Notes under the pieces: model-generated
Databases searched by the model: none
The model's input: the letters and a program-made list of their open reading frames with translations, nothing else
What the model was told of the DNA's origin: nothing
IMG/VR virus record: IMGVR_UViG_3300043395_000558
Location: 2,919-66,918 of that record
DNA: 64,000 nucleotides
Source of the DNA: a virus
Strand: one strand, 5' to 3'
Part shown: piece by piece, positions 273-59,993 of the stretch
Layout of the letters: the number at the start of each line of letters is the position of its first letter
How positions within the stretch are numbered: the stretch's first letter is position 1
Made by a program: the position numbers and the translations under genes

Positions 273-293
273 TTGGTTTGCATTTTGTATCTC

Positions 294-1400: not shown

Positions 1401-1423
1401 GGATGTTTCTCCTAAGTTGGTGG

Positions 1424-2818
1424 TCATTCATTGTCCTGAGATTCAGGTGCCTCGTCGGGGTGATATGTCTCACCGTCAACCTCTACGTACTCGACGTTGT
1501 CGGTATACCACTTGTCGCTGTCATAGCACTGCCAGCAGTCCTCACGCAGCTCATACTGCTCGGTGTCCTCGGCGTAGCATATCTCGTCTGAGTCATCTGG
1601 GTACCACGCATCGGCTGACTCGATGAAGGTAGCGTTGTCACTGTGCGTGTACCCGCCGTCGTGCAGCTCGACGATGCCGTTGTCGTCAAGGTAGTCCTCG
1701 TCGTAGTACTCACCGTCAGCCTCAACGATGTAGTCGTTGTGCACATAGTACTGATACCCACGGCGGCCATACACATAGGTGTAGTTGTCGATACAGTTGT
1801 CGCACACAATCGTGTCCTCGCCACGACCCACGCAATTCTCATCGTCGTGGTCGTAGATAGCAGCACCGCAGTCCTCGCAGTTGCAAAGTGGTGCGCCGCA
1901 CTTGCCGTCTGTGTTGTCACAGCAGTACTCGCCGTTGGGGGATATGGTCAGGTACATGTCGCTGTAGATGTCAACTTGCCGCTCGTCGCCGTCAATGTAC
2001 GGAGCGAGGAACTCGTTGCTGTTGCCGCTGAGTTTGTAGTAACTCAGCTTGGCATCCTCTGGCCAGCCGCCCCGCTTCTCGAAGCCGATACTCTTGAGGT
2101 ACGCCTCGATAGCCTCGTCAACACCTGAGTGCGAACGCTCGTCCGGGTTGCGCTTGTACGAACGCACGAAGCATTTGTACTGCGTCTCCGGGTCGGTGTA
2201 GAGGAGACAGCGACCGAGTATCTTGCCGTTCTCCACACGCACAGCCATAGACCAGCCAAGCGCGGGGTCGTACACAGCGTAGGGGTGACGCTGCTCGCCG
2301 TCATCACAGCGGATGTTGAAGTGGCGAGTCATACAAGAACTGGGGCCGTTCATCACAGCCTCGATCATGTTGGGCAAGTAGTCAACGATCTCGATACTGC
2401 CTGAGTAGGTATGCCGCGCAACGATGTCACGCAACTCATGGTCAGGCATATGCGAGAAGTGACGGCGCAGATACTTACCCAGGGTAGTGATGGTCTGGCG
2501 ATCAGCCTCGCCCTTGCGCTCGTTCTCGGTGTACGCTACCCGGTTGGGGTCGGTGATGGACTTGTGCGGCCACTCAAGCAGCAACTGATGCCAGTCATCG
2601 GGGCGGTAGATCTCGAACGAGGAGTACACAGCGGGGTGGAACTGATGCTTGTCGTGCTCACGCTTGAACCAAGCACGCCCCTCGTAGCTTTGCTGGTAGA
2701 TGCGGTGTCCGTACTGGTCACGGACATACTCGTGGGTGTCACCCGCCACGATGCGGGCGGCATTGAAGAACATATCGGTGAACAGGCGTGCTTGTTCAAC
2801 ATTGCAGTGTTTACACAT
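1424..2818 (-). CDS. Phage protein with SCM/GRCLLY/PYIDG core and acidic CxxC-rich C-terminal domain
   Basis: 464 aa; RBS GGAGAAAGCAA; CEDC, CDNC and CWQC motifs in an Asp/Glu/Tyr-rich tail. Confidence 0.75.
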   Translation of the reverse strand: MCKHCNVEQARLFTDMFFNAARIVAGDTHEYVRDQYGHRIYQQSYEGRAWFKREHDKHQFHPAVYSSFEIYRPDDWHQLLLEWPHKSITDPNRVAYTENERKGEADRQTITTLGKYLRRHFSHMPDHELRDIVARHTYSGSIEIVDYLPNMIEAVMNGPSSCMTRHFNIRCDDGEQRHPYAVYDPALGWSMAVRVENGKILGRCLLYTDPETQYKCFVRSYKRNPDERSHSGVDEAIEAYLKSIGFEKRGGWPEDAKLSYYKLSGNSNEFLAPYIDGDERQVDIYSDMYLTISPNGEYCCDNTDGKCGAPLCNCEDCGAAIYDHDDENCVGRGEDTIVCDNCIDNYTYVYGRRGYQYYVHNDYIVEADGEYYDEDYLDDNGIVELHDGGYTHSDNATFIESADAWYPDDSDEICYAEDTEQYELREDCWQCYDSDKWYTDNVEYVEVDGETYHPDEAPESQDNE

Positions 2819-2837
2819 TTGCTTTCTCCTTTTGTTG

Positions 2838-3050
2838 TTACACATTCATTTCACGATTACGCACATCGCGCATGTGCTTCTTGTAGAACTGAACGAACAG
2901 TTCATCAAACGCAGAGAGAAGTTTCTCTCTGTTACTCAGGTCGGCGACATAGAACGCACGAGCTATGTGCCCAGCGAAACTACCGCCCTCACTCTCCATC
3001 ATGCGTGCCGCACGCAGCAGCATGTCGTGGTCTAGTTGCATTGCTTTCAT
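2838..3050 (-). CDS. Hypothetical protein
   Basis: 70 aa, RBS GGAGAAAGCAA. Confidence 0.75.
   Translation of the reverse strand: MKAMQLDHDMLLRAARMMESEGGSFAGHIARAFYVADLSNREKLLSAFDELFVQFYKKHMRDVRNREMNV
2912..2931. repeat. Palindrome family A, copy 1 (CAGAGAGAA-GT-TTCTCTCTG), intragenic
   Basis: 9-bp inverted arms, 2-bp spacer. Confidence 0.65.
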
Positions 3051-3208
3051 TTGCTTTCTCCTTCCGCTTTATTCAGCGCTTCCACAATGGTTGCCGCTTC
3101 CCACTGAAACAGGCATGGCAGAGTTATTTCCTCATCACCACGCCCAACCACATAGGTAGGCCCAGCCCCCTCCTCATCGGTTCTTGCGTACCAATAACTA
3201 GCTTTCAT
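3047..3208 (-). CDS. Small hypothetical protein (53 aa, MKASYWYART...GESK), absent from the ORF track
   Basis: GGAGG RBS; ATGA overlaps with both neighbours. Confidence 0.65.
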   Translation of the reverse strand: MKASYWYARTDEEGAGPTYVVGRGDEEITLPCLFQWEAATIVEALNKAEGESK

Positions 3209-3459: not shown

Positions 3460-3653
3460 TGCGTTTCTCCTTTCAAGTTGTCTCGTACCCATGTCGCTAG
3501 CAGGTTGGCAGTGAGCGCCGCATCCTTTACGTCCTCGAAGTATTCAGTCCCGTAGATAGCCGGGTCTTCGAGGTAGTTCTCCAAGTCTCGTGCGATACAC
3601 GAGGTCAGGCTTTGAATCTGACGCAGAGCGTCATGGAGGTTCTTTGGTTTCAT
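3456..3653 (-). CDS. Hypothetical protein
   Basis: RBS AGGAGAAA; ATGA overlap. Confidence 0.7.
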   Translation of the reverse strand: MKPKNLHDALRQIQSLTSCIARDLENYLEDPAIYGTEYFEDVKDAALTANLLATWVRDNLKGETQ

Positions 3654-3669
3654 TTAATTTCTCCTGTGG

Positions 3670-4038
3670 TTAATCAAAGTCAAGGTCTGCGCCAACAAAG
3701 TACAGCTCTCTGCCGTCCTTTAACTGGGCGAAGCAAAACGCATGGCTGTCGGGCTCGGCGGGGTCGTCACCTATCACCGCACCATCTAGTTCCCGGGCAG
3801 TGATATAAATGGTGGGCTCTCCCAGATGGTCGTAGTTCCTGAACGAAGCAGAGGCCGGGATAGACACACCCTCCTGTGCAAGGTCGTCCCGCATACGCAC
3901 AGGGCGCATCTCCCATTGCGGGTCTTCCTCCTCTACCTCAACACGAATGAATCGAGCGCCATCGAATATCTGGATCACTTCATAGTCAATGCCCAACTCG
4001 TCCAGAGCAATGTAAATTTCCTGTGCTGTCATCTCCAT
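3670..4038 (-). CDS. Hypothetical acidic protein
   Basis: 122-aa ORF within the early operon. Confidence 0.7.
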   Translation of the reverse strand: MEMTAQEIYIALDELGIDYEVIQIFDGARFIRVEVEEEDPQWEMRPVRMRDDLAQEGVSIPASASFRNYDHLGEPTIYITARELDGAVIGDDPAEPDSHAFCFAQLKDGRELYFVGADLDFD

Positions 4039-4115
4039 ACTCCTACATCTAACATCAACACAATCAGTGCTACGAGTAGCACCACCCGAATTACTTTCTC
4101 CTCTGTTGTCAGCAT
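4029..4115 (-). CDS. 28-aa single-TM membrane peptide (MLTTEEKVIRVVLLVALIVLMLDVGVWR)
   Basis: RBS GGAGAAACGCA; fills the gap between neighbouring genes; one hydrophobic helix. Confidence 0.65.
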   Translation of the reverse strand: MLTTEEKVIRVVLLVALIVLMLDVGVWR

Positions 4116-4363
4116 TGCGTTTCTCCTTCCATGTACAAAGTCAATGCGCTACCCGAGTAGTTGCCGAAGTCATAGTTGGTCATGACTAGGTTCTCAATCT
4201 CGTAGTTGTCTAGCTTTCTGCCCTTGAGGTATGCGCCCAGGGGTATCACGCCGTTGATGTGGCGTGACCTGTCGCTGAACAGTATGTGTTCATCCTCGAC
4301 CACGGCAACCATGCGTTGCCCGTGTTGGTCGTAGTGCCTGCCTGTATTCCACTGGTGTTTCAT
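4109..4363 (-). CDS. Hypothetical protein
   Basis: 84 aa, ATGA overlap with upstream gene. Confidence 0.7.
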   Translation of the reverse strand: MKHQWNTGRHYDQHGQRMVAVVEDEHILFSDRSRHINGVIPLGAYLKGRKLDNYEIENLVMTNYDFGNYSGSALTLYMEGETQC

Positions 4364-4599
4364 TTCTTCTTCCCTTCAAAGTAACCCAGCCATTGCGTGC
4401 CATCTACCTGGGGTTGGTAGAAGTTGATCTCGTAGTTGGTGTCGTGTGACACCGGCACATAGAACAGATTGAATGGGTTGCCCTCCTTCTCCATGTGTGT
4501 GAGCAGTTGCCTGAGCGTGCGGTCTGGCGTGGTTGTTATCCATGTCATTGCACTAGCGGCAAAGTAATGTGACTTGGTGTTGTCGTGGTTCATCTTCAT
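4360..4599 (-). CDS. Hypothetical protein
   Basis: 79 aa, RBS GGAGAAAGCAA. Confidence 0.75.
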   Translation of the reverse strand: MKMNHDNTKSHYFAASAMTWITTTPDRTLRQLLTHMEKEGNPFNLFYVPVSHDTNYEINFYQPQVDGTQWLGYFEGKKK

Positions 4600-4611
4600 T
4601 TGCTTTCTCCT

Positions 4612-4782
4612 TCAGTGGTCGGTGTTGGTATTGAGGTCAACGAACGGATGCTCGTCGTTCAGGAACGAATCGTCGAGGTCGACAAGCGTGAGCCTGTCGC
4701 CTGCATCCCACACATAGACCTCAAGGTCAGCGGCTTCGGGCGGCAGGGCAGTCAACGCCGCAATCAGTTCTCTCACTTTCAT
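4612..4782 (-). CDS. Hypothetical protein (56 aa, MKVRELIAAL...)
   Basis: RBS GGAGAAAGCAA; ATGA overlap. Confidence 0.7.
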   Translation of the reverse strand: MKVRELIAALTALPPEAADLEVYVWDAGDRLTLVDLDDSFLNDEHPFVDLNTNTDH

Positions 4783-5039
4783 TTGCTTTCTCCTTTGATG
4801 ACGAAGCTGAACAGATGGTCGGGCAACGGGTCTTTCCACCCCTTGGGGTACACCACAGCGAGCGCATCGAAGTCACCCAACTCCTCGCTTGTGTACTCCT
4901 TGCCGACAAAGTTAATGTCGTACTCGTCCCATATAACCCAGTCATCGAACGATGCGAGCGTTGTGTCATAGAACTCACGCTCGGACACCACGCCTCGCAC
5001 ATAGCCTTCGGCAAAGGCTTTCACTTTCTCCTGACTCAT
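4779..5039 (-). CDS. Hypothetical protein
   Basis: 86 aa, RBS GGAGAAAGCAA. Confidence 0.75.
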   Translation of the reverse strand: MSQEKVKAFAEGYVRGVVSEREFYDTTLASFDDWVIWDEYDINFVGKEYTSEELGDFDALAVVYPKGWKDPLPDHLFSFVIKGESK

Positions 5040-5079
5040 TTGCTTTCTCCAGTTTCAGATGCCGCCACTTGAATACGCC

Positions 5080-5096
5080 AGAGAGAATTTCTCTCT
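5080..5096. repeat. Palindrome family A, copy 2 (AGAGAGAA-T-TTCTCTCT), intergenic
   Basis: 8-bp arms; adjacent to an 8-bp hairpin at 5103-5128. Confidence 0.75.
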
Positions 5097-5144
5097 AGCA
5101 TCGGCTGTGCGGGCGGCGTAGCACAGCCTAAAAAACTAACCCGG

Positions 5145-5807
5145 TCAAACCATCTCGGCACTACGCATCACCTCTTGCCAACTGTTGGGGATGTGCTCGC
5201 CCAGGGGTATCTCGTGGATGCAGGCAATGGCACGCTTGAGCGTGTCTGCCTTCTCTGTCTCGCCTTTGTCTAATGCGGTGTGCATCTGCAAGCGTGTGTT
5301 GCGTAGCAGGCGACTCTTTCTGCGGTCATACAAGACCAGCGGTAGCCTGCGCTCAAAGGGTTGCTTCACCTTGGCGTGTGCCCTGGTCGGTATGGCGCTC
5401 GCCGCCTCCTCAAAAGCCTGCCGCACACGGGCGGGTACGAAATCAACCCAATGGCTGTGCGGTGGGGGCTTGTACTCTTTGCGTTGCTTGGCCAGTCGTG
5501 CATACAGGGAGTTGAGTAGCGTGGCGTATTGGTTGATGAAGTCGTCCCGTTCAGGGGCAGGCTCGGTCGTTTTGTACCGCATCATCGAGCGCACAACCCG
5601 GCGCTCATGTTGCAAGGCCTCGATCACCTCGCCCCACGCCTCATCGTTTTTCCGGCGGGATAATTTCAGGCGTGTTGCCTCCGCCCTGGCCGCTCTGACT
5701 GCGGTGAGTGTCTGCCCTATGATTTCTTCGGGCATATCGTTGGCACGCAAGTCCCACTCAATGTCCCGGTATGTCCTGCCTTTGTACTTGGCTACAAGAT
5801 CGGTCAT
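5145..5807 (-). CDS. Hypothetical basic helical protein
   Basis: 220 aa, GGAGAAATC RBS. Confidence 0.75.
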   Translation of the reverse strand: MTDLVAKYKGRTYRDIEWDLRANDMPEEIIGQTLTAVRAARAEATRLKLSRRKNDEAWGEVIEALQHERRVVRSMMRYKTTEPAPERDDFINQYATLLNSLYARLAKQRKEYKPPPHSHWVDFVPARVRQAFEEAASAIPTRAHAKVKQPFERRLPLVLYDRRKSRLLRNTRLQMHTALDKGETEKADTLKRAIACIHEIPLGEHIPNSWQEVMRSAEMV

Positions 5808-5841
5808 GATTTCTCCGATGTAATGTTGATGGTGTTAAAAA

Positions 5842-6126
5842 CTGTCCGAGGTTATGCCCGACACGAGCCAACTTCGGACACGCTGAGAGCCGCATGAATA
5901 CTAGCATAGAAACATTTCTGTCCCCTAGTTCTACTGTTTTCAAACACAACTAAAGGGAAGACTTTTAATTGAAAGTTGTTGTAGGTGTGTGTATGAATGT
6001 GTTTATCTATATCTAATAATAGTATAGATAGATAGATAGAGAGGGACTGAAAGTCCCAGACGCAAGCATTCATGCGGGTTGGCGCGTGTCCGAGATTGAT
6101 TTGCGCAGGGCAAAACGAACGGACAG
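5842..6126. other. Putative replication origin: nested inverted repeats around an AT-rich core
   Basis: 31-bp imperfect IR at 5875-5905/6062-6092; CTGTCCG/CGGACAG at 5842/6120; GATA tandem repeats; non-coding. Confidence 0.5.
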
Positions 6127-6148
6127 TAAAAAAATGGGCAAAATGACG

Positions 6149-6376
6149 TCAGACTAGTGACCACTGGGTCAGTTGCGCCTTGCGTGCGAGGTAGGCATCG
6201 GCGGATGCGAAGGTTTCGCTCTTGCCGCCGACGTGGCAGAGGTTGATCCACCAGTAGCGCTTGTCGCCTTTGCCCTTGGGGTAGTAGATGGTGGCGAAGT
6301 AGCGGATGCCGTCTACGCCGGTGAAGCCCGAGTCGATGGGCTCAAGTGTGGGGATGTCGAGGTTACGCATGGTCAT
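6149..6376 (-). CDS. Hypothetical protein
   Basis: 75 aa, AGGAGA RBS, ATGA overlap. Confidence 0.7.
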   Translation of the reverse strand: MTMRNLDIPTLEPIDSGFTGVDGIRYFATIYYPKGKGDKRYWWINLCHVGGKSETFASADAYLARKAQLTQWSLV

Positions 6377-6555
6377 TCTCCTTGGTTGAGTTGGTACATT
6401 GCATCGATCACGGCAAGCCAGAACTTGCGCCCGTCTTCGTGGCTGTCGTACGAGAAAGCGTGGTCGCTTGCCCGTTCCTCTGGCGTGTACTTGCTGGTGC
6501 GGTACACGGACAGCATATGCTTGGCTGTGTCGAGTACCTTTTCTTCGTAGGTCAT
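6373..6555 (-). CDS. Hypothetical protein (60 aa, MTYEEKVLDT...)
   Basis: RBS GGAGAAACGTCC-ATG. Confidence 0.7.
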   Translation of the reverse strand: MTYEEKVLDTAKHMLSVYRTSKYTPEERASDHAFSYDSHEDGRKFWLAVIDAMYQLNQGE

Positions 6556-6627
6556 GGACGTTTCTCCAGTTGGTTGGGTTGTGGCTAGACAGGGAATGAA
6601 ACAGCGGGCCAGCCTCGCCCGCTGAGT

Positions 6628-6646
6628 CAGAGAGAAATTCTCTCTG
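6628..6646. repeat. Palindrome family A, copy 3 (CAGAGAGAA-A-TTCTCTCTG)
   Basis: 9-bp arms; next to a GC hairpin at 6602-6624. Confidence 0.8.
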
Positions 6647-6649
6647 TGA

Positions 6650-7051
6650 TTACTTGGCAACAGCACGCAGAACGGCGATAGCCTCGCCCACGCTGTCGAA
6701 CTTGGCCAGATACGCCTGCGCCGCCTTGCGTAGCTCGGGGCTGTAGCGTTTGCTCGTCTTCGGCTCAGTCTTCGTTTTGCCCTGCATAACGTGGTAGCGG
6801 AAGCCACTCGTCGCTCGGTCGATTGCTCCGGCGTTGATTGCCTCGGCGCCCTTGCCTGCCTCGATGATCGACTGCGCCTCTGAGAGAGAAATTCTCTCTC
6901 GCCCTGCGATGTAGCCCACCATGAACTCAAGCCGTATCTCTGCTTGCTTCTCGGGCTTTGCTTTGCCCCAGGACTTGCGGATAGATGCGGCGAGGGCTTC
7001 GGACTTGGCGTCGTTGTTGCCAATTGACTTGGCGGAAGTGCGGATGCTCAT
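6650..7051 (-). CDS. First gene of the early arm: small basic helical protein, candidate DNA-binding
   Basis: 133 aa from MSIRTSAK; RBS GGAGAAACATCC; contains palindrome A copy 4. Confidence 0.75.
   Translation of the reverse strand: MSIRTSAKSIGNNDAKSEALAASIRKSWGKAKPEKQAEIRLEFMVGYIAGRERISLSEAQSIIEAGKGAEAINAGAIDRATSGFRYHVMQGKTKTEPKTSKRYSPELRKAAQAYLAKFDSVGEAIAVLRAVAK
6882..6900. repeat. Palindrome family A, copy 4 (GAGAGAGAA-A-TTCTCTCTC), intragenic
   Basis: 9-bp arms, within codons for RERISLS. Confidence 0.8.
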
Positions 7052-7361
7052 GGATGTTTCTCCTGGTTGAGCTGTTGGCTGGGCGATATGCCTCGCATCA
7101 ACACTTCCAGTAAACCATATGGGGGTTTTAAACAAGGTCGAAACGTCCTGGCCGAACCCCACCATACCCCCACCCACCGAGATATTTGACGGCCAGGCTA
7201 GCCAGCCAGAACACTGTTTTGCACCCGCTCCCAGTATTCTGTAATACTTTTGTCTACTCTTTACAGCTCCGCACCCCAAATGTTGTAAACCACTTTTGGC
7301 CACTTTGTAAACTTAACCTACCCCACCTCCAAAATTTTTTATAAAAATTCCAGAACACCCC

Positions 7362-7377
7362 TGTCTAACGATTGACA
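7362..7377. promoter_or_regulatory. Operator-like palindrome, family B, copy 2
   Basis: TGTCTAACGATTGACA in the divergent control region. Confidence 0.6.
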
Positions 7378-7382
7378 GGCAT

Positions 7383-7411
7383 AAAAAAACCCCCGACATT
7401 TCTGCCGGGGG
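7383..7411 (-). terminator. Rho-independent terminator
   Basis: CCCCCGGCA-GAAA-TGTCGGGGG followed by T7 on the minus strand. Confidence 0.85.
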
Positions 7412-7479
7412 CTGAATGGGGGAGTCAACCCACCAATAGGAGAAAGCAAAGGGCAACTGCTAGACTTGCACCAATGCCG
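7383..7479 (-). ncRNA. Putative trans-acting sRNA (~97 nt) with anti-RBS seed UUUGCUUUCUCCUAU
   Basis: Own promoter (TTGCGG-N17-TACACT) and terminator; no ORF; seed at 7436-7450 is complementary to a repeated RBS; 5' end estimated. Confidence 0.65.
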
Positions 7480-7514
7480 GAACTAAGTGTACACTGGGGA
7501 CACCGGGACCGCAA
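7466..7514. promoter_or_regulatory. Bidirectional sigma70-type promoter sharing a palindromic -10 (AGTGTACACT)
   Basis: Plus strand: TTGCAC(7466)-N18-TACACT(7490). Minus strand: TTGCGG(7514)-N17-TACACT(7491). Confidence 0.65.
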
Positions 7515-7535
7515 CCCGCATCCGTCTAAGGACAA

Positions 7536-8159
7536 ATGCTCGAACACCTGCTTGACTTCCAGCCTGAAGTTACATCCAGTACCGAGGCACCGCCCCCGGT
7601 AGAAAAAACTACGCCTATGCAGGCGCTGGATGGGAAGATTAATACTTCCGACTGGCTCAAATCCATGGGTGCGCCAGACAAAGAGGCTGTTGTATCCGAG
7701 CTAGAAAAGACCCAGGCCCGTGAAACATTCACGGCGCTCACCACCAACGCCCCCACCGCAGATGCACACGCCATGGTCTCCAAGCTGGAGACCCCGCAAG
7801 CTGTACGGCACCTGACAAGTATGCTCACCGCATACGACTGGGAATTTATACAGCAGGCAAAAGAGCTGCGCGGCTACGCAGTGGCCAAGATTCTGGAGGA
7901 GTGCGAGCACCCGACGGCGTCAATCCGGCTCAAAGCGCTGGCGCTCCTGGGTAAGGTGACCGAAGTCGGTTTGTTTACAGAAAAAATCGAGGTCAAGAAG
8001 ACCGACATGACCGAGGACGAGGTCGATCGCAGGTTGAAAGAGAAGCTCGCCAAGTTCATGGACGTGACGGATGTGCAGCCGATCGAGGACATTGACGTGA
8101 TTGATGTCGTGGCCACCCCCGCCCCACCGGAAGACGAACCGGAAAAGCCCAGTGAGTGA
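7536..8159 (+). CDS. Probable terminase small subunit
   Basis: Directly upstream of and overlapping TerL; ALALLGKV..VGLFTEKIEV motif typical of TerS C-termini. Confidence 0.6.
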   Translation: MLEHLLDFQPEVTSSTEAPPPVEKTTPMQALDGKINTSDWLKSMGAPDKEAVVSELEKTQARETFTALTTNAPTADAHAMVSKLETPQAVRHLTSMLTAYDWEFIQQAKELRGYAVAKILEECEHPTASIRLKALALLGKVTEVGLFTEKIEVKKTDMTEDEVDRRLKEKLAKFMDVTDVQPIEDIDVIDVVATPAPPEDEPEKPSE

Positions 8160-9684
8160 GAAGATCCTGACCCCCGAGGAGGCCACAGCCCTCTACCGCA
8201 GACTACCCACCATGGGTAAAGTGGAGAAATTGGAGACTTTGGACTTGTTGGACAAGCAAGAGCACTGGCGGGAGCTGAGAAAGAAGCGCCAGGACCCCAT
8301 CGAGTTCGCCAAACACGTCTATCCGGGGTTCAAGATCGGGCCACACCACAGGAAACTGGCCAAAATCTTCCAGGAAGTGATCTCCGGCCAGAAAAAACGC
8401 GTGATTATCAACATCGCGCCACGTATGGGTAAGTCGGAGTTCTCTTCCTACCTGTTCCCAGCGTTCTTTCTAGGTAATTACCCTGATAAAAAGATTATCA
8501 TGGGTACGCATACCGCTGGGTTGTCGGAGGACTTTGGCCGTAGGGTGCGGAACTTGATCGATTCGGAGGAGTACCGTGAGCTTTTTCCGAACACGCTGGT
8601 GGCGGACGACCAAAAGGCCGCCGGAAAATGGAGCACCAGCACTGGTGGCCAGTATTATGCTGCTGGTGTTGGCGGTGCTCTTGCTGGACGTGGTGCTGAT
8701 CTGTTCGTTATTGACGACCCTCATTCTGAACAGGACGTAAAGGCGAACTCTCGTCTCGCCTTTGATACCGCCTGGAGTTGGTTCCAGACCGGACCCTTGC
8801 AGCGTCTGATGCCGGGCGGGGCGATCATCATCGTGATGACACGCTGGGGCAAGCTCGACCTGACCGGACGCTTGATCGACTACCAAACGCGCAACCCGGA
8901 GTCGATACCCTGGGAGATCGTGGAGCTACCGGCCATCCTGCACGAGGGCACGGACAAGGAGAAGTCCTTGTGGCCAGAGCAGTGGCCACTGGCCACACTG
9001 AAGGCGACGAAGGCGTCGATCGACCCACAGTACTGGAACGCCCAGTACATGCAGCAGCCCACATCCAACAACGCGGCGATCATCAGCCGGAAACTGTGGC
9101 GGATCTGGGAGCCGGACGACCCACCCGAGTGCGACTACGTCATACAGTCCTGGGATACGGCGTTTGAGACCAAGACAAACTCCGACTACTCGGCGTGTAC
9201 GACATGGGGCGTCTTCTACAACGAGGAGGAAGACAGCAAGGCGCAGGTCATTCTCCTGGACGCGTTCAAGGACCGGATGGCGTTCCCGGAGTTGAAGCAG
9301 ATTGCGCTCAAACACTACAAGGAGTGGGAGCCGGACGCGTTCATCGTGGAAAAGAAGGCTGCCGGGGCACCGCTCATCCAGGAACTACGGAACATGGGCA
9401 TACCAGTCCAGGAGACGAACCCTAGCCGTGGCAACGACAAGATGGTACGATTGAACGCAGTGGCTGATCTGTTCGCATCCGGCATGGTGTGGGCGCCAGA
9501 CACACGCTGGGCGCGTGAGGTGATCGAGGAAGTGGCGTCGTTCCCCAACGGCGAGAACGATGACTTCGTGGATACCACCAGCCAGGCGTTGCTGAGATTC
9601 AGACAAGGTGGGTTTATTCGTCTGGACTCGGACGAACCGGATGAACCCAGATTTTTCAGACGCCGTAGCGCAGCATATTATTAG
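8152..9684 (+). CDS. terL: Terminase large subunit
   Basis: Walker A APRMGKS, Walker B FVIDDPH, MTRW coupling motif, nuclease motifs SWDTA and DDFVD; GTG start at 8152 likely. Confidence 0.95.
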   Translation: MSEKILTPEEATALYRRLPTMGKVEKLETLDLLDKQEHWRELRKKRQDPIEFAKHVYPGFKIGPHHRKLAKIFQEVISGQKKRVIINIAPRMGKSEFSSYLFPAFFLGNYPDKKIIMGTHTAGLSEDFGRRVRNLIDSEEYRELFPNTLVADDQKAAGKWSTSTGGQYYAAGVGGALAGRGADLFVIDDPHSEQDVKANSRLAFDTAWSWFQTGPLQRLMPGGAIIIVMTRWGKLDLTGRLIDYQTRNPESIPWEIVELPAILHEGTDKEKSLWPEQWPLATLKATKASIDPQYWNAQYMQQPTSNNAAIISRKLWRIWEPDDPPECDYVIQSWDTAFETKTNSDYSACTTWGVFYNEEEDSKAQVILLDAFKDRMAFPELKQIALKHYKEWEPDAFIVEKKAAGAPLIQELRNMGIPVQETNPSRGNDKMVRLNAVADLFASGMVWAPDTRWAREVIEEVASFPNGENDDFVDTTSQALLRFRQGGFIRLDSDEPDEPRFFRRRSAAYY

Positions 9685-9698
9685 AAAAGGGGAAAGCC

Positions 9699-10364
9699 AT
9701 GGATCGTCGCAACTTTTTGGGATTGCTGGTTGCCGGGGCGGCAACACCCTTGCTGCCCGCGCTTGCAGACACAACACCACCGCTAGCCAACACACAAATC
9801 TGGACTGCTGAGACCTTGGCGGTCGAGATGGAGAAGCTGTTTGCCTGCCGCATCGGCCCGGCTCAGGGGTTCTTTGAGATGGTGAAGGGTACGGATCAAA
9901 TTGTTGCGGGCGCGCCTGATGACACCCCACGCAAGATTGGGGAGCCGCCGGTAGTGGCAGATGACCGCGTGTATTTTGCCTACAGCACCTACGGCTTTGC
10001 TGTTGAGGGAGGAGAATCGTGGGAGGCCGAGCACAGACTAGCCCAAGAGTTTTACGCACGGTTCTCGCAGGTAGAGCAAAAGAATCTGGTCTGGCGCAGG
10101 AAGCCCTTGTTCGAGACCCAGGAGGTGGCCGAGTATGGCGCAACTTGGGCTACTCGTGAGCAGATTGAGGACGGGTTTATTGACCTGGCTGACAAACCCC
10201 CAGGCGTCGAGCTGGACCCAAACTGGGGCAACTACCGCTACGTGACACGCAAGTACCCATTGCATAGAATGACGATGCGGCTGGCCTTTACGGATCAGCC
10301 AAGCGAAGAAGAGTTGACTTCGCTTACCCCGCGACCTGAAGGCGCGACCCTACCAAGGATTTAA
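9699..10364 (+). CDS. Hypothetical protein with twin-arginine (Tat) signal peptide
   Basis: MDRRNFLG, hydrophobic stretch, ALA cleavage site; sits between terL and portal. Confidence 0.75.
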   Translation: MDRRNFLGLLVAGAATPLLPALADTTPPLANTQIWTAETLAVEMEKLFACRIGPAQGFFEMVKGTDQIVAGAPDDTPRKIGEPPVVADDRVYFAYSTYGFAVEGGESWEAEHRLAQEFYARFSQVEQKNLVWRRKPLFETQEVAEYGATWATREQIEDGFIDLADKPPGVELDPNWGNYRYVTRKYPLHRMTMRLAFTDQPSEEELTSLTPRPEGATLPRI

Positions 10365-10369
10365 TAATC

Positions 10370-54350: not shown

Positions 54351-54767
54351 TTACTTTCTTGCTTTGGTTACACGAATGTCGAACCCGGTGACCGAGTTCA
54401 GTCCCGGCGGTACAACGCCGGGGTTCTCCTCCAGAAACTGCGCCATGTTGGTTTGGGCGATGCGCTTCTCCAGCAGGTCAACGACTTGATGCTCAAGCAC
54501 GAATGCTTTGAACGAGTCCCAGTCCTGGGTGTTGTAGCGCGTCGTCTTCATCAACGACACAGTACCGAAGGAGGTCTTTACCGATGTCAGCCCAAGGGCT
54601 TTCATCTGGTCCTTGATGGCCATGCGGATCTCTTCCCGCTGCTCTTCTAGATCAGCGAGTTGCTTGTCGAGCAGCTCCTGCCGGGCCTTAATCTTAGCGT
54701 GGATAGCGACCAGCTTGTCGAGCGGGATTGCTTCCACCGCCGGTGCTTCTTCAATGTCTTCAGTCAC
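54351..54767 (-). CDS. Conserved replication-module protein (Gam/gp157-like coiled coil)
   Basis: DWDSF, LLEKRIAQ, VPPGL; GTG start with strong RBS. Confidence 0.7.
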   Translation of the reverse strand: MTEDIEEAPAVEAIPLDKLVAIHAKIKARQELLDKQLADLEEQREEIRMAIKDQMKALGLTSVKTSFGTVSLMKTTRYNTQDWDSFKAFVLEHQVVDLLEKRIAQTNMAQFLEENPGVVPPGLNSVTGFDIRVTKARK

Positions 54768-54787
54768 TTACTTTCTCCTATGTTGTT

Positions 54788-56397: not shown

Positions 56398-56398
56398 G

Positions 56399-56584
56399 TC
56401 ACTTCTCCAGCAGTTTCGTCGTGTGCAGTGTGTACTGCCGCGAGCCGTGCTCTTGAAGCATGGCCAGCACACGCTCGGCTTCTCTCTTGTTGGTGTAGGC
56501 GTGTTCCATCACGCCGCTGCTGCTGTGGTCGTAGTACTCCCACGCAATCACATAAACATACACATCTAACTCGATAATTTCCAT
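56399..56584 (-). CDS. Hypothetical protein
   Basis: 61 aa; RBS GGAGAAAGCAA. Confidence 0.65.
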   Translation of the reverse strand: MEIIELDVYVYVIAWEYYDHSSSGVMEHAYTNKREAERVLAMLQEHGSRQYTLHTTKLLEK

Positions 56585-56601
56585 TTGCTTTCTCCATAGT
56601 T

Positions 56602-57705: not shown

Positions 57706-58013
57706 CAGAACCTCGCACTCTGAATAGCCCGGGCAAGCCGGTTGCTGAACTCCTCGACAAAGTTCTCGTCGTTGTTCAGATCGGTACGATCCATGTTCTC
57801 AAGTATGGCATGTGTCAGCTCGTGCCAAAAGGTTTCGTGAAGGGCGGATAATTTCAAAGGTACGCCGTGATAAGACCTGCGTGCCAGGGTGATCGTGCGC
57901 TTGCCGTAGTGCACCTCACCCATCATCGCCCGTTCTTTCATCGACTCGACCACGTCAACGCTGTACCACTTGTCACCGATCTGTATTTTTTTAGGTAGTG
58001 TCAATTGCTTCAT
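57705..58013 (-). CDS. Small zincin-like (HExxH) protein
   Basis: TFWHELTHAIL...E.FV. Confidence 0.72.
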   Translation of the reverse strand: MKQLTLPKKIQIGDKWYSVDVVESMKERAMMGEVHYGKRTITLARRSYHGVPLKLSALHETFWHELTHAILENMDRTDLNNDENFVEEFSNRLARAIQSARF

Positions 58014-58022
58014 GCTTTCTCC

Positions 58023-59993
58023 TTATTTAATATCACCGTAGCACCGGCTGTGGCCAACGTCTGAGTTGAGCGGTATCCCAGGCATATACTTGGGCTCCGC
58101 AACCATCTGTTCCCACACCCACTTGGTTGCTTCTTCTGCTTCTTCAGCCGGTACCACCGCCCACAATTCATCATGGACTGTGCCTACCACGGGGTACTTT
58201 TTGCTCACCCGTAGCATGCCGTCTGTCATCACCACACGCGCAGTTCCCTGCACGATGTTGTTAGTGATCTTGCCTCCGTAGAGGTTGAGCACCGCAGGGC
58301 GCCCGTTCTTTTCACCATCATAAACCCACGCCCCGGTCTTGTCCCGGCGCAGGTTGCGGTAGTGGATCGACATGCCCGAGGGCAATACGATCTCCTCCTT
58401 TTTGAAGGTGACACATTTATACACGAACTCCTCACCACCGACAAGAGCCGACTTCAACAGCCGCTCGCACATGTCCCAGAAGGTCGTCACCGGGTGGGCT
58501 GTAGCACGATAGTTGTCAATGATCTTCTTGGCCGTGACGCAGTGGATCAACAACTCCTGGTCGGTGCAGTTGTGCGGGATGCTGGTCATGCGGGTCAGGT
58601 TGTCTTCCCACCCCATGAAGCGCTCGATGTATGCCCGGTCTATGCCCAGCTGCTTGGCGTCAGCCTTGGTATAGCGTAGCGGTGCCGCCCCCAGGAAGCC
58701 CGTCAAAAGCTGCGCAGAGAAGCTCGCCCACCCCAGTTGATACCCAGCCCCCAGCAAGGCCGATTTCGCGCTCTGGCGCTCGATTGGATGCGTCTCCTTG
58801 GTCATGCCAGGAAGCCCGAACATCTGTGCACCAAAGAGGGAGTACACGTCTTTGCCGCTGCGGAACATGGCCAGCACGTCCTCGTAGTCGGTGAGCCACG
58901 CCAGCACCCTGGGCTCGATCTGGGACAGGTCACCCACCACCAGCTCGTACCCCTCCGGGGCCAGGATAGCCCGCCGCATGGCGCCGCCCCGCTTCAGGTT
59001 CTGCATGTTGATGGCCGCACCCCTCGTCGCCGTCCAGCGCCCAGACTTAGCGCCATAATAGTTAAGTGGTACTGGAAGGCGGCCCCGTTGTGAAATGTCA
59101 AGGAACCGTTGGGCTCGCGTTCGCTCTCCGGTCGATTTAACTTTAAGGCGAGCCTCACAAAGGTCGACAATGTCTTCACGCTCGCCGTTGAGAAGTGCCT
59201 GGAACAGCGCATCGTTCTTGGCAAGTGCCAGGGACTCCTTGCCTGTGGTCTTGCTGACCTTTGTCGGAGGAGTAACCCCGAGCCTTTGAAGTAGGGCAGC
59301 AAACTTTGGGTTCGACGCGAGTTCAGCTTCTTCCACGCCGAGTTGTCTGAGTAGGCCTTCACGTCGTTCTCCTTCTTCTTGCAGTGCGGTGATCAACACC
59401 TTGCGGTCCAGCTCCAGCAGCGGGCGTGTGTACATCTTCAGCGTCATGTCGATCAGGCGCAGCTCCTTCGTAGGGTAGCCCTCAACCAGGCGCTCGAACA
59501 CCCGCTCGCACAGGTACACGTCATGCTTGCAGTACTCGGCCAGCTCCTTCTCGATCTCAGGTGTGAGGTCAATGAGCCCATCTGTGCTGTGCACAGCCTG
59601 CCCCTTGGGCGGTAGGCCGAAGTCTTCGGCCAGCTTCATCAGCGAGTTACCGACTTCCAGGCCGCGTAGAGCTCGCGCCATTGATAGCGAGTCGAAGATG
59701 AACGCGGGTTCAACACCGTATACCCAGGAGAGGATCGATACGTCGAACTGTGCGTTATGAGCAAGGACTGCGGTGGTTGACCAGTCGTAAGTCCCCAGGA
59801 TTCTAGGAAGCTCATCTCCTCGATACCACTGAGTGACTCGCTCAGATCCGTACTCATGGATGCACGCGCCGAACGCCTTGAAACGCTTGTCACGAATGTA
59901 CTCCTCAGTTGTCATCTTGGACAGCGTGTAGTCCGACCTGTCCCAGCGTGTCTCGAAATCGATTGTCAGTATGCGTTTGTATGGTGCTGTCAT
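58023..59993 (-). CDS. polA: DNA polymerase family A with 3'-5' exonuclease (Leu762 type)
   Basis: DFET, HNAQFD, YCKHD; motif A DLSQIEPR; motif B RQSAKSALLGAGY; motif C VHDE. Confidence 0.93.
   Translation of the reverse strand: MTAPYKRILTIDFETRWDRSDYTLSKMTTEEYIRDKRFKAFGACIHEYGSERVTQWYRGDELPRILGTYDWSTTAVLAHNAQFDVSILSWVYGVEPAFIFDSLSMARALRGLEVGNSLMKLAEDFGLPPKGQAVHSTDGLIDLTPEIEKELAEYCKHDVYLCERVFERLVEGYPTKELRLIDMTLKMYTRPLLELDRKVLITALQEEGERREGLLRQLGVEEAELASNPKFAALLQRLGVTPPTKVSKTTGKESLALAKNDALFQALLNGEREDIVDLCEARLKVKSTGERTRAQRFLDISQRGRLPVPLNYYGAKSGRWTATRGAAINMQNLKRGGAMRRAILAPEGYELVVGDLSQIEPRVLAWLTDYEDVLAMFRSGKDVYSLFGAQMFGLPGMTKETHPIERQSAKSALLGAGYQLGWASFSAQLLTGFLGAAPLRYTKADAKQLGIDRAYIERFMGWEDNLTRMTSIPHNCTDQELLIHCVTAKKIIDNYRATAHPVTTFWDMCERLLKSALVGGEEFVYKCVTFKKEEIVLPSGMSIHYRNLRRDKTGAWVYDGEKNGRPAVLNLYGGKITNNIVQGTARVVMTDGMLRVSKKYPVVGTVHDELWAVVPAEEAEEATKWVWEQMVAEPKYMPGIPLNSDVGHSRCYGDIK

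What the first reader, a model, noticed from the sequence alone, without database searches (positions are those of the whole stretch)
7383..7514. Candidate phage sRNA that silences early and replication genes through a shared extended RBS (early-to-late switch)
Seen: a strong minus-strand terminator (7383-7411) has no protein gene upstream of it. About 100 nt upstream is a minus-strand promoter, TTGCGG-N17-TACACT. The predicted ~97-nt RNA carries 5'-UUUGCUUUCUCCUAU-3' (7436-7450) between two hairpins. That segment is the exact complement of the RBS of the minus-strand genes starting at 2818, 3050, 4599 and 4782 (13 nt), 5039 and 56584 (12 nt) and 58013 (11 nt). It pairs over 15 nt with two G-U pairs at 54767, and over 7-8 nt at 201, 1400, 3459, 3653, 4115, 5807, 6555 and 7051. 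Most plus-strand late genes use other SD contexts (AAGGACA, AGGAGT, AGGAGC). Inference: one trans-acting anti-SD sRNA, made from the same promoter region as the terminase operon, shuts off translation of many early/middle genes, and the targets have converged on its seed. I do not know of this system being described.
Basis: partly seen in the sequence, partly recalled or inferred. Interest (0 to 1): 0.92.

Follow-up and report, generated by a model that had tools for sequence, protein, structure and literature searches.

The report
Phage small RNA with anti-ribosome-site seed
Between the early and late genes of an uncultured freshwater phage lies a conserved gene for a roughly 95-base structured RNA whose exposed stretch is the mirror image of the ribosome-landing site used by many of the phage's own early genes, and by one gene of its possible host, so it probably switches their translation off.

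Summary

**What the window shows**
- 7383-7479 (minus strand) has a weak promoter, three hairpins and an intrinsic terminator. No ORF is conserved on either strand.
- The 12-mer GGAGAAAGCAAA occurs exactly 7 times: 6 before minus-strand starts and once, inverted, here (shuffles: mean 0.26).

**What relatives show**
- 38 of 45 distinct regions upstream of terS in related viral contigs keep the module.
- The module is SL1, then a single-stranded UUCUCCU, then SL2 (a different stem sequence in nearly every lineage), then a terminator with a U-tail.
- G-U pairs and the U-tail fit only the minus strand.

**Predicted targets**
- The 12 best-ranked translation starts are all early-arm genes.
- Seed variants track the early-gene RBS variants at class level only.

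**Two additions**
- The closest known family is Rfam RF02278, the Betaproteobacteria "toxic"/double-hairpin sRNAs with a CU-rich anti-RBS stretch. The match is 24 bits against a cut-off of 50, so this RNA is not a member.
- The same segment is antisense over 16-25 nt to the start region of a Lys/Ala-rich histone-H1-like gene of Comamonadaceae. That would be a possible host target, but the host is unproven.

**What is missing**
- No strand-resolved RNA data exist.
- The early-to-late switch role is inference.
- Seven sRNA-less relatives still carry the RBS motif.

The scan had not found this RNA on other DNA.

The parts
7383..7479 (-). Predicted small RNA, about 93-97 nt. The 5' end is near 7478/7479, 7 nt after the -10. 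The 3' end lies in the U run 7383-7387.
   Evidence: Folds at -40.4 kcal/mol, z -3.7. There are 30 distinct homologues with the same three-domain fold. No ORF is conserved.
7509..7514 (-). -35-like hexamer TTGCGG of the sRNA promoter.
   Evidence: Read. TTGnnn at N17 (N16 or N18 in a few rows) is kept in all lineages with the module. It is GTGTAA in 6 of the 7 sequences of the sRNA-less clade and TTGTAA in L051.
7486..7495 (.). Palindrome AGTGTACACT. It reads TACACT as a -10 on both strands and is shared by the sRNA promoter and the terS (late) promoter.
   Evidence: The sRNA-less clade has GGTGTACATT, which reads TACACC on the minus strand.
7466..7471 (+). -35-like TTGCAC of the rightward terS promoter, 18 nt before TACACT. 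The same bases form part of SL1 in the RNA.
   Evidence: TTGCnn is conserved in relatives.
7445..7478 (-). SL1. The RNA's 5' end pairs with the UUUGCU part of the anti-RBS segment. An inner hairpin is GCAA/UUGC.
   Evidence: The minus strand is more stable than the plus strand in 28 of 30 (mean -5.1 kcal/mol). Partners vary C/U opposite G and G/A opposite U. The L074 clade has a change on both sides.
7436..7450 (-). Anti-RBS segment UUUGCUUUCUCCUAU. 7436-7444 (UUCUCCUAU) is the single-stranded linker.
   Evidence: The core UCUCC is unpaired with P of 0.84 or more in 30 of 30. Its complement occurs 6 times before early starts.
7417..7435 (-). SL2, a short hairpin.
   Evidence: Present in 29 of 30, with 28 distinct sequences. 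Mean z -2.1 and no strand bias.
7383..7413 (-). SL3, an intrinsic terminator (stem 7413-7388) plus a U-tail.
   Evidence: A hairpin plus a U run of 4-8 is present in 30 of 30 homologues, with changed stems.
2818..2830 (-). Predicted target: RBS and start of a 464-aa early protein.
   Evidence: 13-nt match. ddG -15.0.
3050..3062 (-). Predicted target: RBS and start of a 70-aa early protein.
   Evidence: 13-nt match. ddG -15.9.
4599..4611 (-). Predicted target: RBS and start of a 79-aa early protein.
   Evidence: 13-nt match. ddG -18.0.
4782..4794 (-). Predicted target: RBS and start of a 56-aa early protein.
   Evidence: 13-nt match. ddG -13.0.
5039..5050 (-). Predicted target: RBS and start of an 86-aa early protein.
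   Evidence: 12-nt match.
56584..56595 (-). Predicted target: RBS and start of a 61-aa protein in the replication arm.
   Evidence: 12-nt match. ddG -14.6.
58013..58023 (-). Predicted target: RBS and start of a 102-aa protein, just downstream (in the direction of transcription) of the family A DNA polymerase gene.
   Evidence: 11-nt match. ddG -13.9.
54767..54781 (-). Predicted target: RBS and start of a 138-aa protein (DUF7307, Gp157-like).
   Evidence: 11 Watson-Crick nt, or 15 with two G-U pairs. This is the best ddG, -18.8. Pfam.

Best explanation
The region is a gene for a trans-acting regulatory small RNA of the phage.

Shown by comparison:
- It is transcribed leftward from a weak sigma-70-type promoter whose -10 lies in a palindrome shared with the rightward terS (late) promoter.
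- It ends at an intrinsic terminator just before the leftward early promoter.
- The RNA folds into SL1, a single-stranded UUCUCCU linker, SL2 and a terminator with a U-tail.

Inferred:
- The exposed CU-rich linker nucleates pairing with the Shine-Dalgarno AGGAGAA of messages that carry the extended start region AAGGAGAA(A)GCAA(A)UG.
- Pairing then spreads into the 3' strand of SL1, giving 12-15 bp over the RBS and start codon. This blocks 30S binding.
- The documented carriers of that start region are 8-10 early or replication-arm genes of the phage itself.
- A Lys/Ala-rich histone-H1-like gene of Comamonadaceae, the possible host, carries it too and could be hit as well.
- In kind, this is a phage-borne relative or analogue of the CU-rich anti-RBS 'double-hairpin/toxic' sRNAs of Betaproteobacteria, with an added 5' stem-loop.
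- That it acts when the late promoter fires is a guess from its position.
For: - Module conservation: 38 of 45 distinct regions upstream of terS in relatives keep the module.
- Fold: among 30 distinct homologues, 29 fold into three domains, and the UCUCC core is unpaired (P of 0.84 or more) in all 30. Mean z is -4.1.
- Strand: the minus strand is more stable in 26 of 30 for the whole RNA and 28 of 30 for SL1. SL1 partners change C/U opposite G (17 C-G, 13 U-G) and G/A opposite U, which is compatible only with minus-strand RNA. The L074 clade changed both sides (GUAGC/GCUAC). A U-tail follows the hairpin in 30 of 30.
- Promoter: TTGnnn (N17 in most rows), TAnAnT is kept wherever the module is. 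Six of the seven sequences of the clade without the module have GTGTAA...TACACC (L051: TTGTAA).
- Coding: no ORF is conserved on either strand. By my reading, 14 of 38 distinct sequences have no ATG after the motif.
- Targets in the window: 10 of the 12 early-sense matches of 9 nt or more sit at starts, against 0 of 2 in the late arm. In a cofold ranking of 42 early and 43 late heuristic starts, the top 12 are all early, and the medians are -7.4 and -3.3 kcal/mol (Mann-Whitney p 7e-6).
- Class-level co-variation: GGAGAAAGCAA seeds go with the same RBS (2-6 copies). The L023 GGAGAAGCAAC seed goes with 3 such RBSs. The L062 GCAAG seed goes with GGAGAAAGCAAGatg. The L074 GGAGAGTAGC seed goes with CAAGGAGAGTAGCtatg.
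- Kinship in architecture: RF02278 aligns end to end, as UGUCUCCU, hairpin, AUUC, terminator, U7. It is also the sub-threshold hit at the sRNA site in 5 of 12 relatives' loci.
- Literature passages: the RF02278 RNAs carry unpaired CU-rich stretches that are the reverse complement of RBSs (PMC5688073).
Against: - No strand-resolved transcript data exist. RNA-library contigs cover 7381-8232, but they cannot give strand, ends or level, and they may contain DNA.
- The promoter is weak, matching 7 of 12, and is not called by the scan.
- The 5' end is predicted, not mapped.
- Seven distinct sRNA-less relatives still show the RBS motif in several arms (L037: 4 copies; L048, L049 and L051: 2 each).
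- L024/L028, L034 and L067 carry the RNA but have no match of 10 nt or more in the 3-4.5 kb of early arm held. A phage's own seed is the best-matching seed in only 4 of 19 arms.
- In the window clade the base opposite the U of AUG is a mismatch, so other clades' seeds fit this phage's RBSs better than its own does.
- Part of the seed is sequestered in SL1.
- Conservation of GGCAACTGCTTGCC could instead reflect a DNA operator at the late -35.
- The RF02278 score is under half the cut-off, and sub-threshold hits to this model occur in 11 of 14 unrelated control genomes.
Confidence: 0.5

Rival explanations
1. The RNA is real, but its selected target is a host message. This is the start region of a Lys/Ala-rich histone-H1-like, presumably nucleoid-associated, protein of Comamonadaceae (MATAKKAPAKK...). 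The phage early RBSs merely copy that strong host start region, so their complementarity to the RNA is secondary or an added layer.
For: - A scan of bacterial genomes with the sRNA-sense pattern gave 77 hits. By my count of the titles and contexts, about 20 are one orthologous gene start in Hydrogenophaga (10 titled Hydrogenophaga, plus 1 under another title), Ideonella, Hylemonella and Burkholderiales MAGs.
- The gene is a 171-aa AKKAPAKK-repeat protein counted from MATAKK (the listed ORF, from an upstream TTG, is 178 aa).
- 344 of 401 genomes sampled from that family have GGAG-N5-9-ATGGCNACNGCNAARAA, with ATGGCAACTGC nearly invariant (the count includes one unpublished genome, G148, on which nothing specific rests).
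- In the Hylemonella MAG the extended RBS pattern occurs once, at this gene.
- Ungapped complementarity with up to 1 mismatch is 25 nt for L024 (23 exact), 23 for the window, 21 for L053, 20 for L015 and 19 for L014.
- Cofold ddG for the window RNA is -21.6 and -20.9 against the host starts, compared with -18.8 for the best phage gene.
- Variants pair best with matching host variants. L022 goes with the GCAACAUGG type (-20.7 against -13 to -14). L015 and L014 go with the GCAAUGG type. L024 and L053 go with the GCAAAUGG type.
- The lineages L024 and L034 have no own-gene matches.
Against: - The host is unknown. A TerL search in 301 genomes of that family found nothing above 37% identity.
- One gene family matching a 19-nt RBS-plus-start pattern among about 185,000 genomes is near what chance allows. 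I estimate about 35 random hits for that pattern.
- About half of the lineages lack GCAGUUGCC and reach only 9-16 nt, which is the RBS part alone.
- GCAA/UUGC is also needed for SL1 and for the late -35.
- Most genomes of that family have other spacers (AAAATGATG, AACATGATG and others) that no phage seed matches.
Confidence: 0.22
2. The minus-strand transcript exists but works in cis at the DNA or transcription level. RNA polymerase bound for leftward transcription at the shared palindromic -10 excludes the rightward late promoter, and the terminator merely insulates the early promoter. On this view the RBS-like stretch is a DNA operator or an accident of descent.
For: - The two -10 hexamers overlap in one palindrome, and the terminator sits right before the early promoter.
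- GGCAA-CTGC-TTGCC is an inverted repeat over the late -35.
Against: - This does not explain an invariant UUGCUU..CUCC beside freely varying SL2 stems.
- It does not explain the wobble-only changes that keep SL1 on the RNA strand, or the predicted exposure of the CUCC core in 30 of 30.
- It does not explain why the stretch equals the phage's own RBS class.
Confidence: 0.12
3. The motif is the working or decayed RBS of a small plus-strand gene or leader peptide, for example a captured 5' end of the host H1-like gene. There is then no functional antisense RNA.
For: By my reading, 24 of 38 distinct relatives have ATG right after the motif. Some then read M-A-T-A, like the host gene.
Against: - The ORFs are 0-82 codons long, with no conserved frame, length or sequence. 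14 of 38 lack the ATG.
- The ORF lies upstream of, and across, the only conserved rightward promoter. No conserved plus-strand promoter lies to its left (reading).
- The hairpin with its A-run is a terminator only on the minus strand.
- SL1 is 5 kcal/mol better on the minus strand.
Confidence: 0.05
4. It is a generic host-type CU-rich 'toxic/double-hairpin' sRNA, borrowed by the phage to damp host metabolism broadly by pairing with many host RBSs. It has no special relation to the phage's early genes.
For: - Sub-threshold end-to-end match to RF02278.
- True members are present in Hydrogenophaga and in a Burkholderiales MAG, at 53.6 and 73 bits.
- Overexpression of ncS27 attenuates growth (PMC5688073, passages).
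Against: - The scores of 23-33.5 bits are far under the 50-bit cut-off.
- The conserved extension UUUGCUU beyond CUCC is absent from the host members, which read UGUCUCCUC. It does match the phage RBS class.
- The extra SL1 is absent from the family model.
Confidence: 0.08

Closest known systems
Rfam RF02278, Betaproteobacteria 'toxic small RNA' = 'double-hairpin RNAs' ncS03/ncS05/ncS27/ncS62 of Burkholderia cenocepacia
   Same: - Both have an unpaired CU-rich stretch (UGUCUCCU against UUUCUCCU), then a short hairpin, AUUC, and a terminator with a U-tail.
- In the published family that stretch is the reverse complement of RBSs, and 55-80% of predicted interactions fall at RBSs (PMC5688073, passages).
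- ncS27 is 92 nt with a 5' extension that is processed off (same paper).
   Different: - It scores 24.3 bits against a cut-off of 50. The best relative scores 33.5.
- It is phage-borne and single-copy, not 3-5 chromosomal copies.
- It has an extra 5' stem-loop that sequesters a conserved UUUGCU extension.
- Its complementarity is to a specific extended start region shared by the phage's own early genes.
Start-associated sequences (SAS) of Cluster K mycobacteriophages
   Same: - Both are conserved asymmetric motifs that contain AGGAG and extend beyond it.
- Both occur a few nt before the start codons of many unrelated non-structural genes, in one orientation.
[quoted passage not shown]
- In Anaya I found that copy in a 385-nt non-coding gap. 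On the transcribed strand it reads CCUCCUAUCC in a 10-nt hairpin loop.
   Different: - The motif is different (GGGATAGGAGCCC), as are the host phylum and the phage type.
- The SAS role is still called unknown (PMC11373665 and PMC12699233, passages), and no RNA partner has been proposed there.
- Pixie (K3) has 6 forward and 0 reverse copies of the core in the 7,148 nt of right end that I searched.
T4 RegB endoribonuclease and RegA translational repressor
   Same: Both are phage-encoded shut-off of many early messages through their ribosome-binding regions. RegB cleaves in GGAG and needs a further conserved sequence (PMC1702504, start of abstract seen).
   Different: They are proteins, not RNA.
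Classical phage antisense RNAs (lambda OOP, P22 Sar, lambda aQ) and recent trans-acting phage sRNAs (PreS, VpdS, 24B_1)
   Same: They are short phage transcripts ended by terminators that pair with messages and block translation or trigger decay (review PMC12197685, its section 2 read).
   Different: - OOP, Sar and aQ are cis-antisense to one overlapping gene. Here no gene lies opposite.
- PreS and VpdS act mainly on host targets.
- None in that section is described as hitting many of the phage's own genes through a shared RBS.
Prokaryotic bidirectional promoters built on symmetric -10 elements
   Same: One pseudo-symmetric -10 region serves divergent transcription (PMC12825309 and PMC10268837, starts of abstracts seen).
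   Different: Here the two hexamers overlap by 2 bp in a 10-bp palindrome. The geometry described in the original work is recalled only, so I did not compare spacing.

Membership tests
Rfam RF02278 (Betaproteobacteria toxic / double-hairpin sRNA) | Covariance-model score at or above the curated gathering score (50 bits) | tested here: not met
   The window scores 24.3 bits. None of 20 relatives' loci reaches the cut-off. The best relative, L029, scores 33.5 bits.
Rfam RF02278 (Betaproteobacteria toxic / double-hairpin sRNA) | Unpaired CU-rich stretch complementary to ribosome-binding sites | tested here: met
   UUCUCCU is unpaired, with P of 0.84 or more, in 30 of 30. It is not at the RNA's 5' end, because SL1 precedes it.
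Rfam RF02278 (Betaproteobacteria toxic / double-hairpin sRNA) | Two hairpins, the second an intrinsic terminator with a U-tail | tested here: met
   SL2 plus SL3 and a U run of 4-8 are present in 29 of 30. L029 lacks SL2.
Rfam RF02278 (Betaproteobacteria toxic / double-hairpin sRNA) | Several chromosomal copies per Burkholderiales genome | tested here: not met
   There is one sub-threshold match in the 66.9-kb virus record.
Cis-antisense phage RNAs (OOP, Sar type) | Transcribed opposite to, and overlapping, the gene it controls | tested here: not met
   No ORF is conserved on the opposite strand. The predicted RNA ends before the early genes and starts 23 bp from the predicted terS transcript start (by reading).
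Type I toxin-antitoxin pair | Small hydrophobic toxin ORF opposite the RNA | tested here: not met
   The plus-strand ORFs after the motif are 0-82 codons long and unrelated in sequence.
Hfq-dependent trans-acting sRNA | Binding to Hfq through the terminator U-tail and an upstream U-rich linker | not testable with these tools
   A U-tail and a UUC/UUU linker are present. Binding itself is not shown.
Start-associated sequence system (Cluster K) | The 13-bp motif GGGATAGGAGCCC before starts | tested here: not met
   The motif here is GGAGAAAGCAAA(TG). Only the layout is alike.

The most novel reading that the evidence does not exclude
The RNA is the phage's post-transcriptional master switch. It is made divergently from the late promoter. 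It shuts off a whole regulon of early genes that all carry one start region copied from a highly expressed host nucleoid-protein gene, and it silences that host gene at the same time. The seed, the phage RBSs and the host start region therefore co-evolve. The same logic, with one inverted copy of the start motif inside a structured RNA, would explain the start-associated sequences of Cluster K1 mycobacteriophages, whose function has been unexplained since 2011.
Probability: 0.15. Interest if true: 0.88.

Novelty: new variant of a known kind. Interest (0 to 1): 0.66.

Why it matters
- Few phage small RNAs are known, and almost none from uncultured environmental phages. This one is a family with dozens of members and a clear architecture, and comparative evidence settles its strand.
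- If it represses the phage's own early regulon through a shared ribosome site, it would be an RNA counterpart of T4 RegA/RegB. It would also be a compact, portable 'one RNA, many genes' switch.
- If it also, or instead, silences a host histone-like protein, it would be a new form of host take-over.
- It gives a concrete, testable idea for the unexplained start-associated sequences of Cluster K mycobacteriophages: look for the single inverted copy as an RNA.

Tried and rejected
**Searches that led nowhere**
- Near-identity search of 6000-12000 against cultured phages found no match. The best TerL relatives are about 50% identical.
- Rfam at gathering score on the whole window, and ARAGORN, found nothing.
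- MAFFT alignments of the RNAs (A1 with 24 sequences, A2 with 10) were structurally poor. RNAalifold on A1 recovered only 6 terminator pairs. I therefore built no covariance model and did the structure counts per sequence in scripts.
- An RNAduplex scan of the whole window at -13 kcal/mol gave 1,123 plus-strand hits, which is noise. I replaced it with exact-run counting and cofold.

**RNA runs**
- Only Logan contigs were served. I laid 4 of the 24 listed runs.
- Contigs from three riverine RNA libraries cover 7381/7382 to terS and terL at depths of 24-47. Little or nothing covers 6000-7312.
- One contig (X8) ends at 7382. Two run on 104 and 78 nt into the sequence that L006-type relatives have there.
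- The contigs give no strand or ends and may contain DNA, so I count this neither for nor against.

**Other checks**
- The own-seed against other-seed matrix gave class-level co-variation only.
Most have a single copy, which by my own rough estimate is about chance level. Only 80 loci were held, and two multi-copy contigs among them (L115, L129) also carry the RNA module.
- The TerL search in 301 genomes of the candidate host family found no close prophage.
- I did not search for other seed variants (L014, L021, L052, L055, L068, L074 types) in bacterial genomes.
- Pixie's right end has no reverse SAS core.

**Ideas considered and rejected**
- A plus-strand promoter from the TTGACA at 7373: there is no conserved -10 in relatives.
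- A minus-strand 40- or 47-aa ORF: not conserved.

**Papers: what I saw**
- Passages by term search: PMC3203893, PMC12699233, PMC11373665, PMC5688073, PMC4603805, PMC10987360, and PMC9262239 (nothing relevant).
- Outline plus its section 2: PMC12197685.
- Listing or start of abstract only: PMC13502914, 10.1101/2024.10.31.621285, PMC1702504, PMC3014915, PMC12825309, PMC10268837.
- Not seen, known only through the above or recalled: Kimelman 2012, Sass 2019 (NcS27), Dedrick 2019 (ZoeJ), and the original 2021 paper on symmetric promoters.
- I did not ask for supplements. Pope 2011's supplementary Figure S3, which shows the reverse sites in Adephagia, Angelica and CrimD, may bear on the Cluster K remark.

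That no multi-target anti-RBS phage sRNA is in print rests on two searches and on section 2 of the review only.
Full report
**Setting.** The window is bases 2919-66918 of a 66.9-kb IMG/VR virus record that CheckV rates complete.
- Minus-strand genes fill 1-7051 and 49851-64000. They include a family A DNA polymerase, an SNF2 helicase, a DUF927 primase-helicase, an M28 peptidase and many small proteins with no PHROG match.
- Plus-strand genes, starting with the terS-like gene at 7536 and terL at 8101, fill 7536-49728.
- So 7051-7536 is the single divergent control region of the genome.
- No cultured phage is close. TerL is about 50% identical to those of pelagiphages and of a phage whose record names Gammaproteobacteria as host.

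- The terminator is called on the minus strand at 7413-7388, with 11 pairs and a T run.
- GGAGAAAGCAAA has seven exact copies: six before minus-strand starts and one inverted at 7439-7450. Shuffles give 0.26 on average at up to one mismatch.
- Exact complementarity of 9 nt or more to a 23-nt stretch of the putative RNA occurs 12 times on the early-arm sense strand, 10 of them right before the start of an ORF of 40 codons or more. It occurs twice on the late-arm sense strand, neither at a start.
- The proposed promoter is present but weak, at 7 of 12, and the tool's scan does not call it.

**Relatives.**
- The terS-like protein retrieved 73 related viral loci at 44-99% identity.
- Of 45 distinct 190-nt upstream sequences, 38 keep the same layout on the plus strand:
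  - an A-run and a G+C hairpin
  - a short hairpin
  - A(A)GGAGAA(A)GCAA
  - a GCAA..TTGC element that includes the -35 of the rightward promoter
  - 17-18 nt
  - a palindromic -10 (AGTGTACACT or AGTATATACT)
  - the terS leader
- Some lineages have an extra hairpin inserted between the motif and the -35 (L029, L062/63, L069).
- One clade (seven distinct sequences, L036-L051) lacks everything between the early promoter and the late promoter.

**It is an RNA, and it is on the minus strand.** I took 30 distinct homologues from the predicted start to the U-tail (75-126 nt).
- 29 fold into three domains.
- The UCUCC core is unpaired with probability 0.84 or more in all 30.
- Mean z against dinucleotide shuffles is -4.1, compared with -2.5 for the complement.
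- The minus strand is the more stable in 26 of 30. The window's RNA gives -40.4 kcal/mol, z -3.7.
- SL2 has 28 different sequences that all pair.
- SL1 is formed by the RNA's 5' end and the (C)AUUUGCU part of the anti-RBS stretch. That stretch is almost invariant. Its partners vary C/U opposite G (17 C-G, 13 U-G) and G/A opposite U. These changes keep pairing only in RNA of this strand.
- In the most distant clade both sides changed (GUAGC/GCUAC).
- SL1 alone is more stable on the minus strand in 28 of 30, by 5.1 kcal/mol on average.
- The U-tail follows the last hairpin only on this strand.
- The minus-strand promoter keeps TTG (17 nt away in most rows, 16 or 18 in a few) from TAnAnT in every lineage with the module. 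Six of the seven sequences of the clade without it have GTGTAA and TACACC (L051: TTGTAA). That correlation is a single evolutionary event.

**It is not a gene for a peptide.**
- ATG follows the motif in 24 of the 38 distinct sequences and is absent in 14, among them the window's clade, which has AGG (my reading).
- The ORFs that overlap the seed range from 0 to 82 codons on the plus strand and share no frame or sequence on either strand.
- The plus-strand copy lies upstream of, and across, the only conserved rightward promoter.

**Targets within the phage.**
- I ran a cofold calculation that charges for opening both partners. It used 42 early and 43 late starts called by a simple SD-aware heuristic.
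- It ranks early-arm starts in the first 12 places and in 14 of the first 20.
- Medians are -7.4 and -3.3 kcal/mol, p 7e-6.
- Across relatives the seed follows the phage's own RBS at the level of classes:
  - GGAGAAAGCAA seeds go with 2-6 such RBSs in nine arms.
  - GGAGAAGCAAC goes with three in L023.
  - GCAAG goes with GCAAGatg in L062.
  - GGAGAGTAGC goes with the same in L074.
- The fit is loose.
  - A phage's own seed is the best of 19 seeds in only 4 arms.
  - Three arms of 3-4.5 kb have no match of 10 nt or more.
  - Three phages with the shorter seed have the longer RBS.
  - Several sRNA-less relatives keep the RBS motif.
- So the RBS motif does not depend on the RNA, and 'convergence on the seed' is not supported. 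The reverse, a seed kept matched to a pre-existing RBS class, remains possible.

**A known kin.**
- A permissive Rfam search of 301 nt gave RF02278, the Betaproteobacteria toxic small RNA, as the best hit. It is on the minus strand at 7382-7445, scores 24.3 bits against a cut-off of 50, has E 0.006, and aligns end to end as UGUCUCCU, hairpin, AUUC, terminator, U7.
- The same family is the sub-threshold hit at the homologous site in 5 of 12 relatives' loci, the best at 33.5 bits. None of 20 loci reaches the cut-off.
- Sub-threshold hits to this small model are common in unrelated genomes, occurring in 11 of 14 controls. The match therefore shows shared architecture, not membership.
- In Burkholderia cenocepacia these 'double-hairpin RNAs' carry unpaired CU-rich stretches that are the reverse complement of RBSs. 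55-80% of predicted interactions lie at RBSs. ncS27 is a 92-nt form processed to the short one, and its overexpression slows growth (PMC5688073, passages; also PMC4603805 and PMC10987360).
- The idea of one anti-SD RNA for many genes is therefore not new in bacteria. What is new here is that the RNA is phage-borne, sits at the early/late control region, has an extra 5' stem-loop, and carries an extension that matches the phage's own start regions.

**An unexpected second candidate target.**
- A scan of about 185,000 bacterial genomes with the RNA-sense pattern gave 77 hits. I estimate about 35 are expected by chance.
- About 20 of them are one orthologous gene start in Hydrogenophaga, Ideonella, Hylemonella and Burkholderiales MAGs.
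- In gene sense it reads GATCAAGGAGAAAGCA ATG GCA ACT GCG AAG AAA. The gene encodes a Lys/Ala-rich AKKAPAKK-repeat protein of the histone-H1-like kind.
- 344 of 401 sampled genomes of that family have such a start, with ATGGCAACTGC almost invariant and the spacer variable (one unpublished genome, G148, is in the tally).
- In the Hylemonella MAG the extended RBS occurs only at this gene.
- Complementarity to the phage RNAs reaches 25 nt with one mismatch (23 exact) for L024, 23 for the window, 21 for L053, 20 for L015 and 19 for L014. It is only 9-16 nt in the lineages that lack GCAGUUGCC.
- Predicted ddG for the window RNA is -21 to -22 kcal/mol, better than for any phage gene.
- Three RNA variants each prefer the host variant with the same spacer.
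- Cautions: the host of these phages is not known, and no close prophage was found in 301 genomes of that family. A single family-level match is near chance for a pattern of this kind. GCAA/UUGC is also required by SL1 and by the late -35.
- I treat this as a serious rival or an additional target, not as shown.

**Expression.** Only assembled contigs of RNA libraries were available. They cover the RNA region contiguously with terS in three riverine runs. They give no strand or ends and may include DNA. I draw no conclusion from them.

**Mechanism I consider most likely, and how sure I am.**
- That a discrete minus-strand small RNA is made here: about 0.8.
- That it acts by pairing its CU-rich linker, with extension, to start regions in trans: about 0.6.
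- That the phage's own early genes are real targets: about 0.45.
- That the host H1-like message is a target: about 0.3. These two are not exclusive.
- Shown: anatomy, conservation, strand and complementarity.
- Inferred: transcription, pairing, repression and timing.

**A wider link.**
- Cluster K mycobacteriophages have 13-bp start-associated sequences before 11-19 non-structural genes. [quoted passage not shown] The authors left open an RNA or protein partner (PMC3203893), and the role was still called unknown in 2024-2025.
- In Anaya that copy lies in a 385-nt gap between gp96 and gp97. On the transcribed strand it is CCUCCUAUCC in the 10-nt loop of a strong hairpin (-66.3 kcal/mol for 141 nt, z -5.3).
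- Pixie (K3) has no reverse copy in the 7.1 kb of right end that I searched.
- This is a lead, not a result.

**Verdict.** This is a real, conserved and previously unnamed family of phage small RNAs. It is a new variant of the CU-rich anti-RBS kind. Its target set is plausible but unproven, and there are two competing readings of what it silences.

Noticed in passing
window 7339-7377: Inverted repeat TGTCTAACGATTGACA (7362-7377). Read leftward it gives a -35-like TTAGAC, with TATAAA about 18 nt further on. The palindrome (TGTCTAA-N2-TTAGACA type) and the AT-rich TTTTATAAAAA box are kept in nearly all relatives, including the sRNA-less clade. This is probably the leftward early promoter with an operator for a dimeric regulator.
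   Followed up: partly
L075:34770-34910 (Mycobacterium phage Anaya, record about 59,769-59,909): The single reverse-oriented start-associated sequence of Anaya lies in a 385-nt non-coding gap. On the transcribed strand it forms CCUCCUAUCC in a 10-nt hairpin loop (z -5.3). It could be an anti-SAS RNA. Pixie has no such copy in its last 7.1 kb.
   Followed up: partly
L231:6075-6590 (Hydrogenophaga intermedia) and 344 of 401 genomes of its family: In the Lys/Ala-rich histone-H1-like gene, the first 11 coding bases ATGGCAACTGC are almost invariant across the family, synonymous sites included. Many genomes have two such genes. This suggests a conserved regulatory site at the start of the message.
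   Followed up: partly
L006:5752-5846: Close relatives of the L002/L006 type have about 95 extra bases, with a hairpin GCTGCT..AGCAGC, between the sRNA terminator and the early-promoter palindrome. RNA-library contigs X5 and X6 extend into it.
   Followed up: no
L064:1310-1918: One relative has an array of five tRNA genes, plus a sub-threshold tRNA-Sec-like hit, placed directly beside the sRNA terminator.
   Followed up: no
L072:2790-2839 (minus strand): Sub-threshold match to the type III hammerhead ribozyme (36.8 bits against a cut-off of 48.5, E 3e-4) in the early arm of the most distant relative.
   Followed up: no
window 1400-1416 and 7051-7068: Two unrelated early genes, the M28 peptidase and the first early gene, share a second extended start motif, AGGAGAAACATCCATG.
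   Followed up: no
window 7496-7535 and relatives: The terS 5' leader keeps conserved blocks (CATCGGGAC.GCAACCCGC in one group, CAACGAGGTT.CAAGGGCCTACGCATG in another). The second group can pair around the start codon, so it may be a structured leader. The same bases supply the -35 of the sRNA promoter.
   Followed up: no
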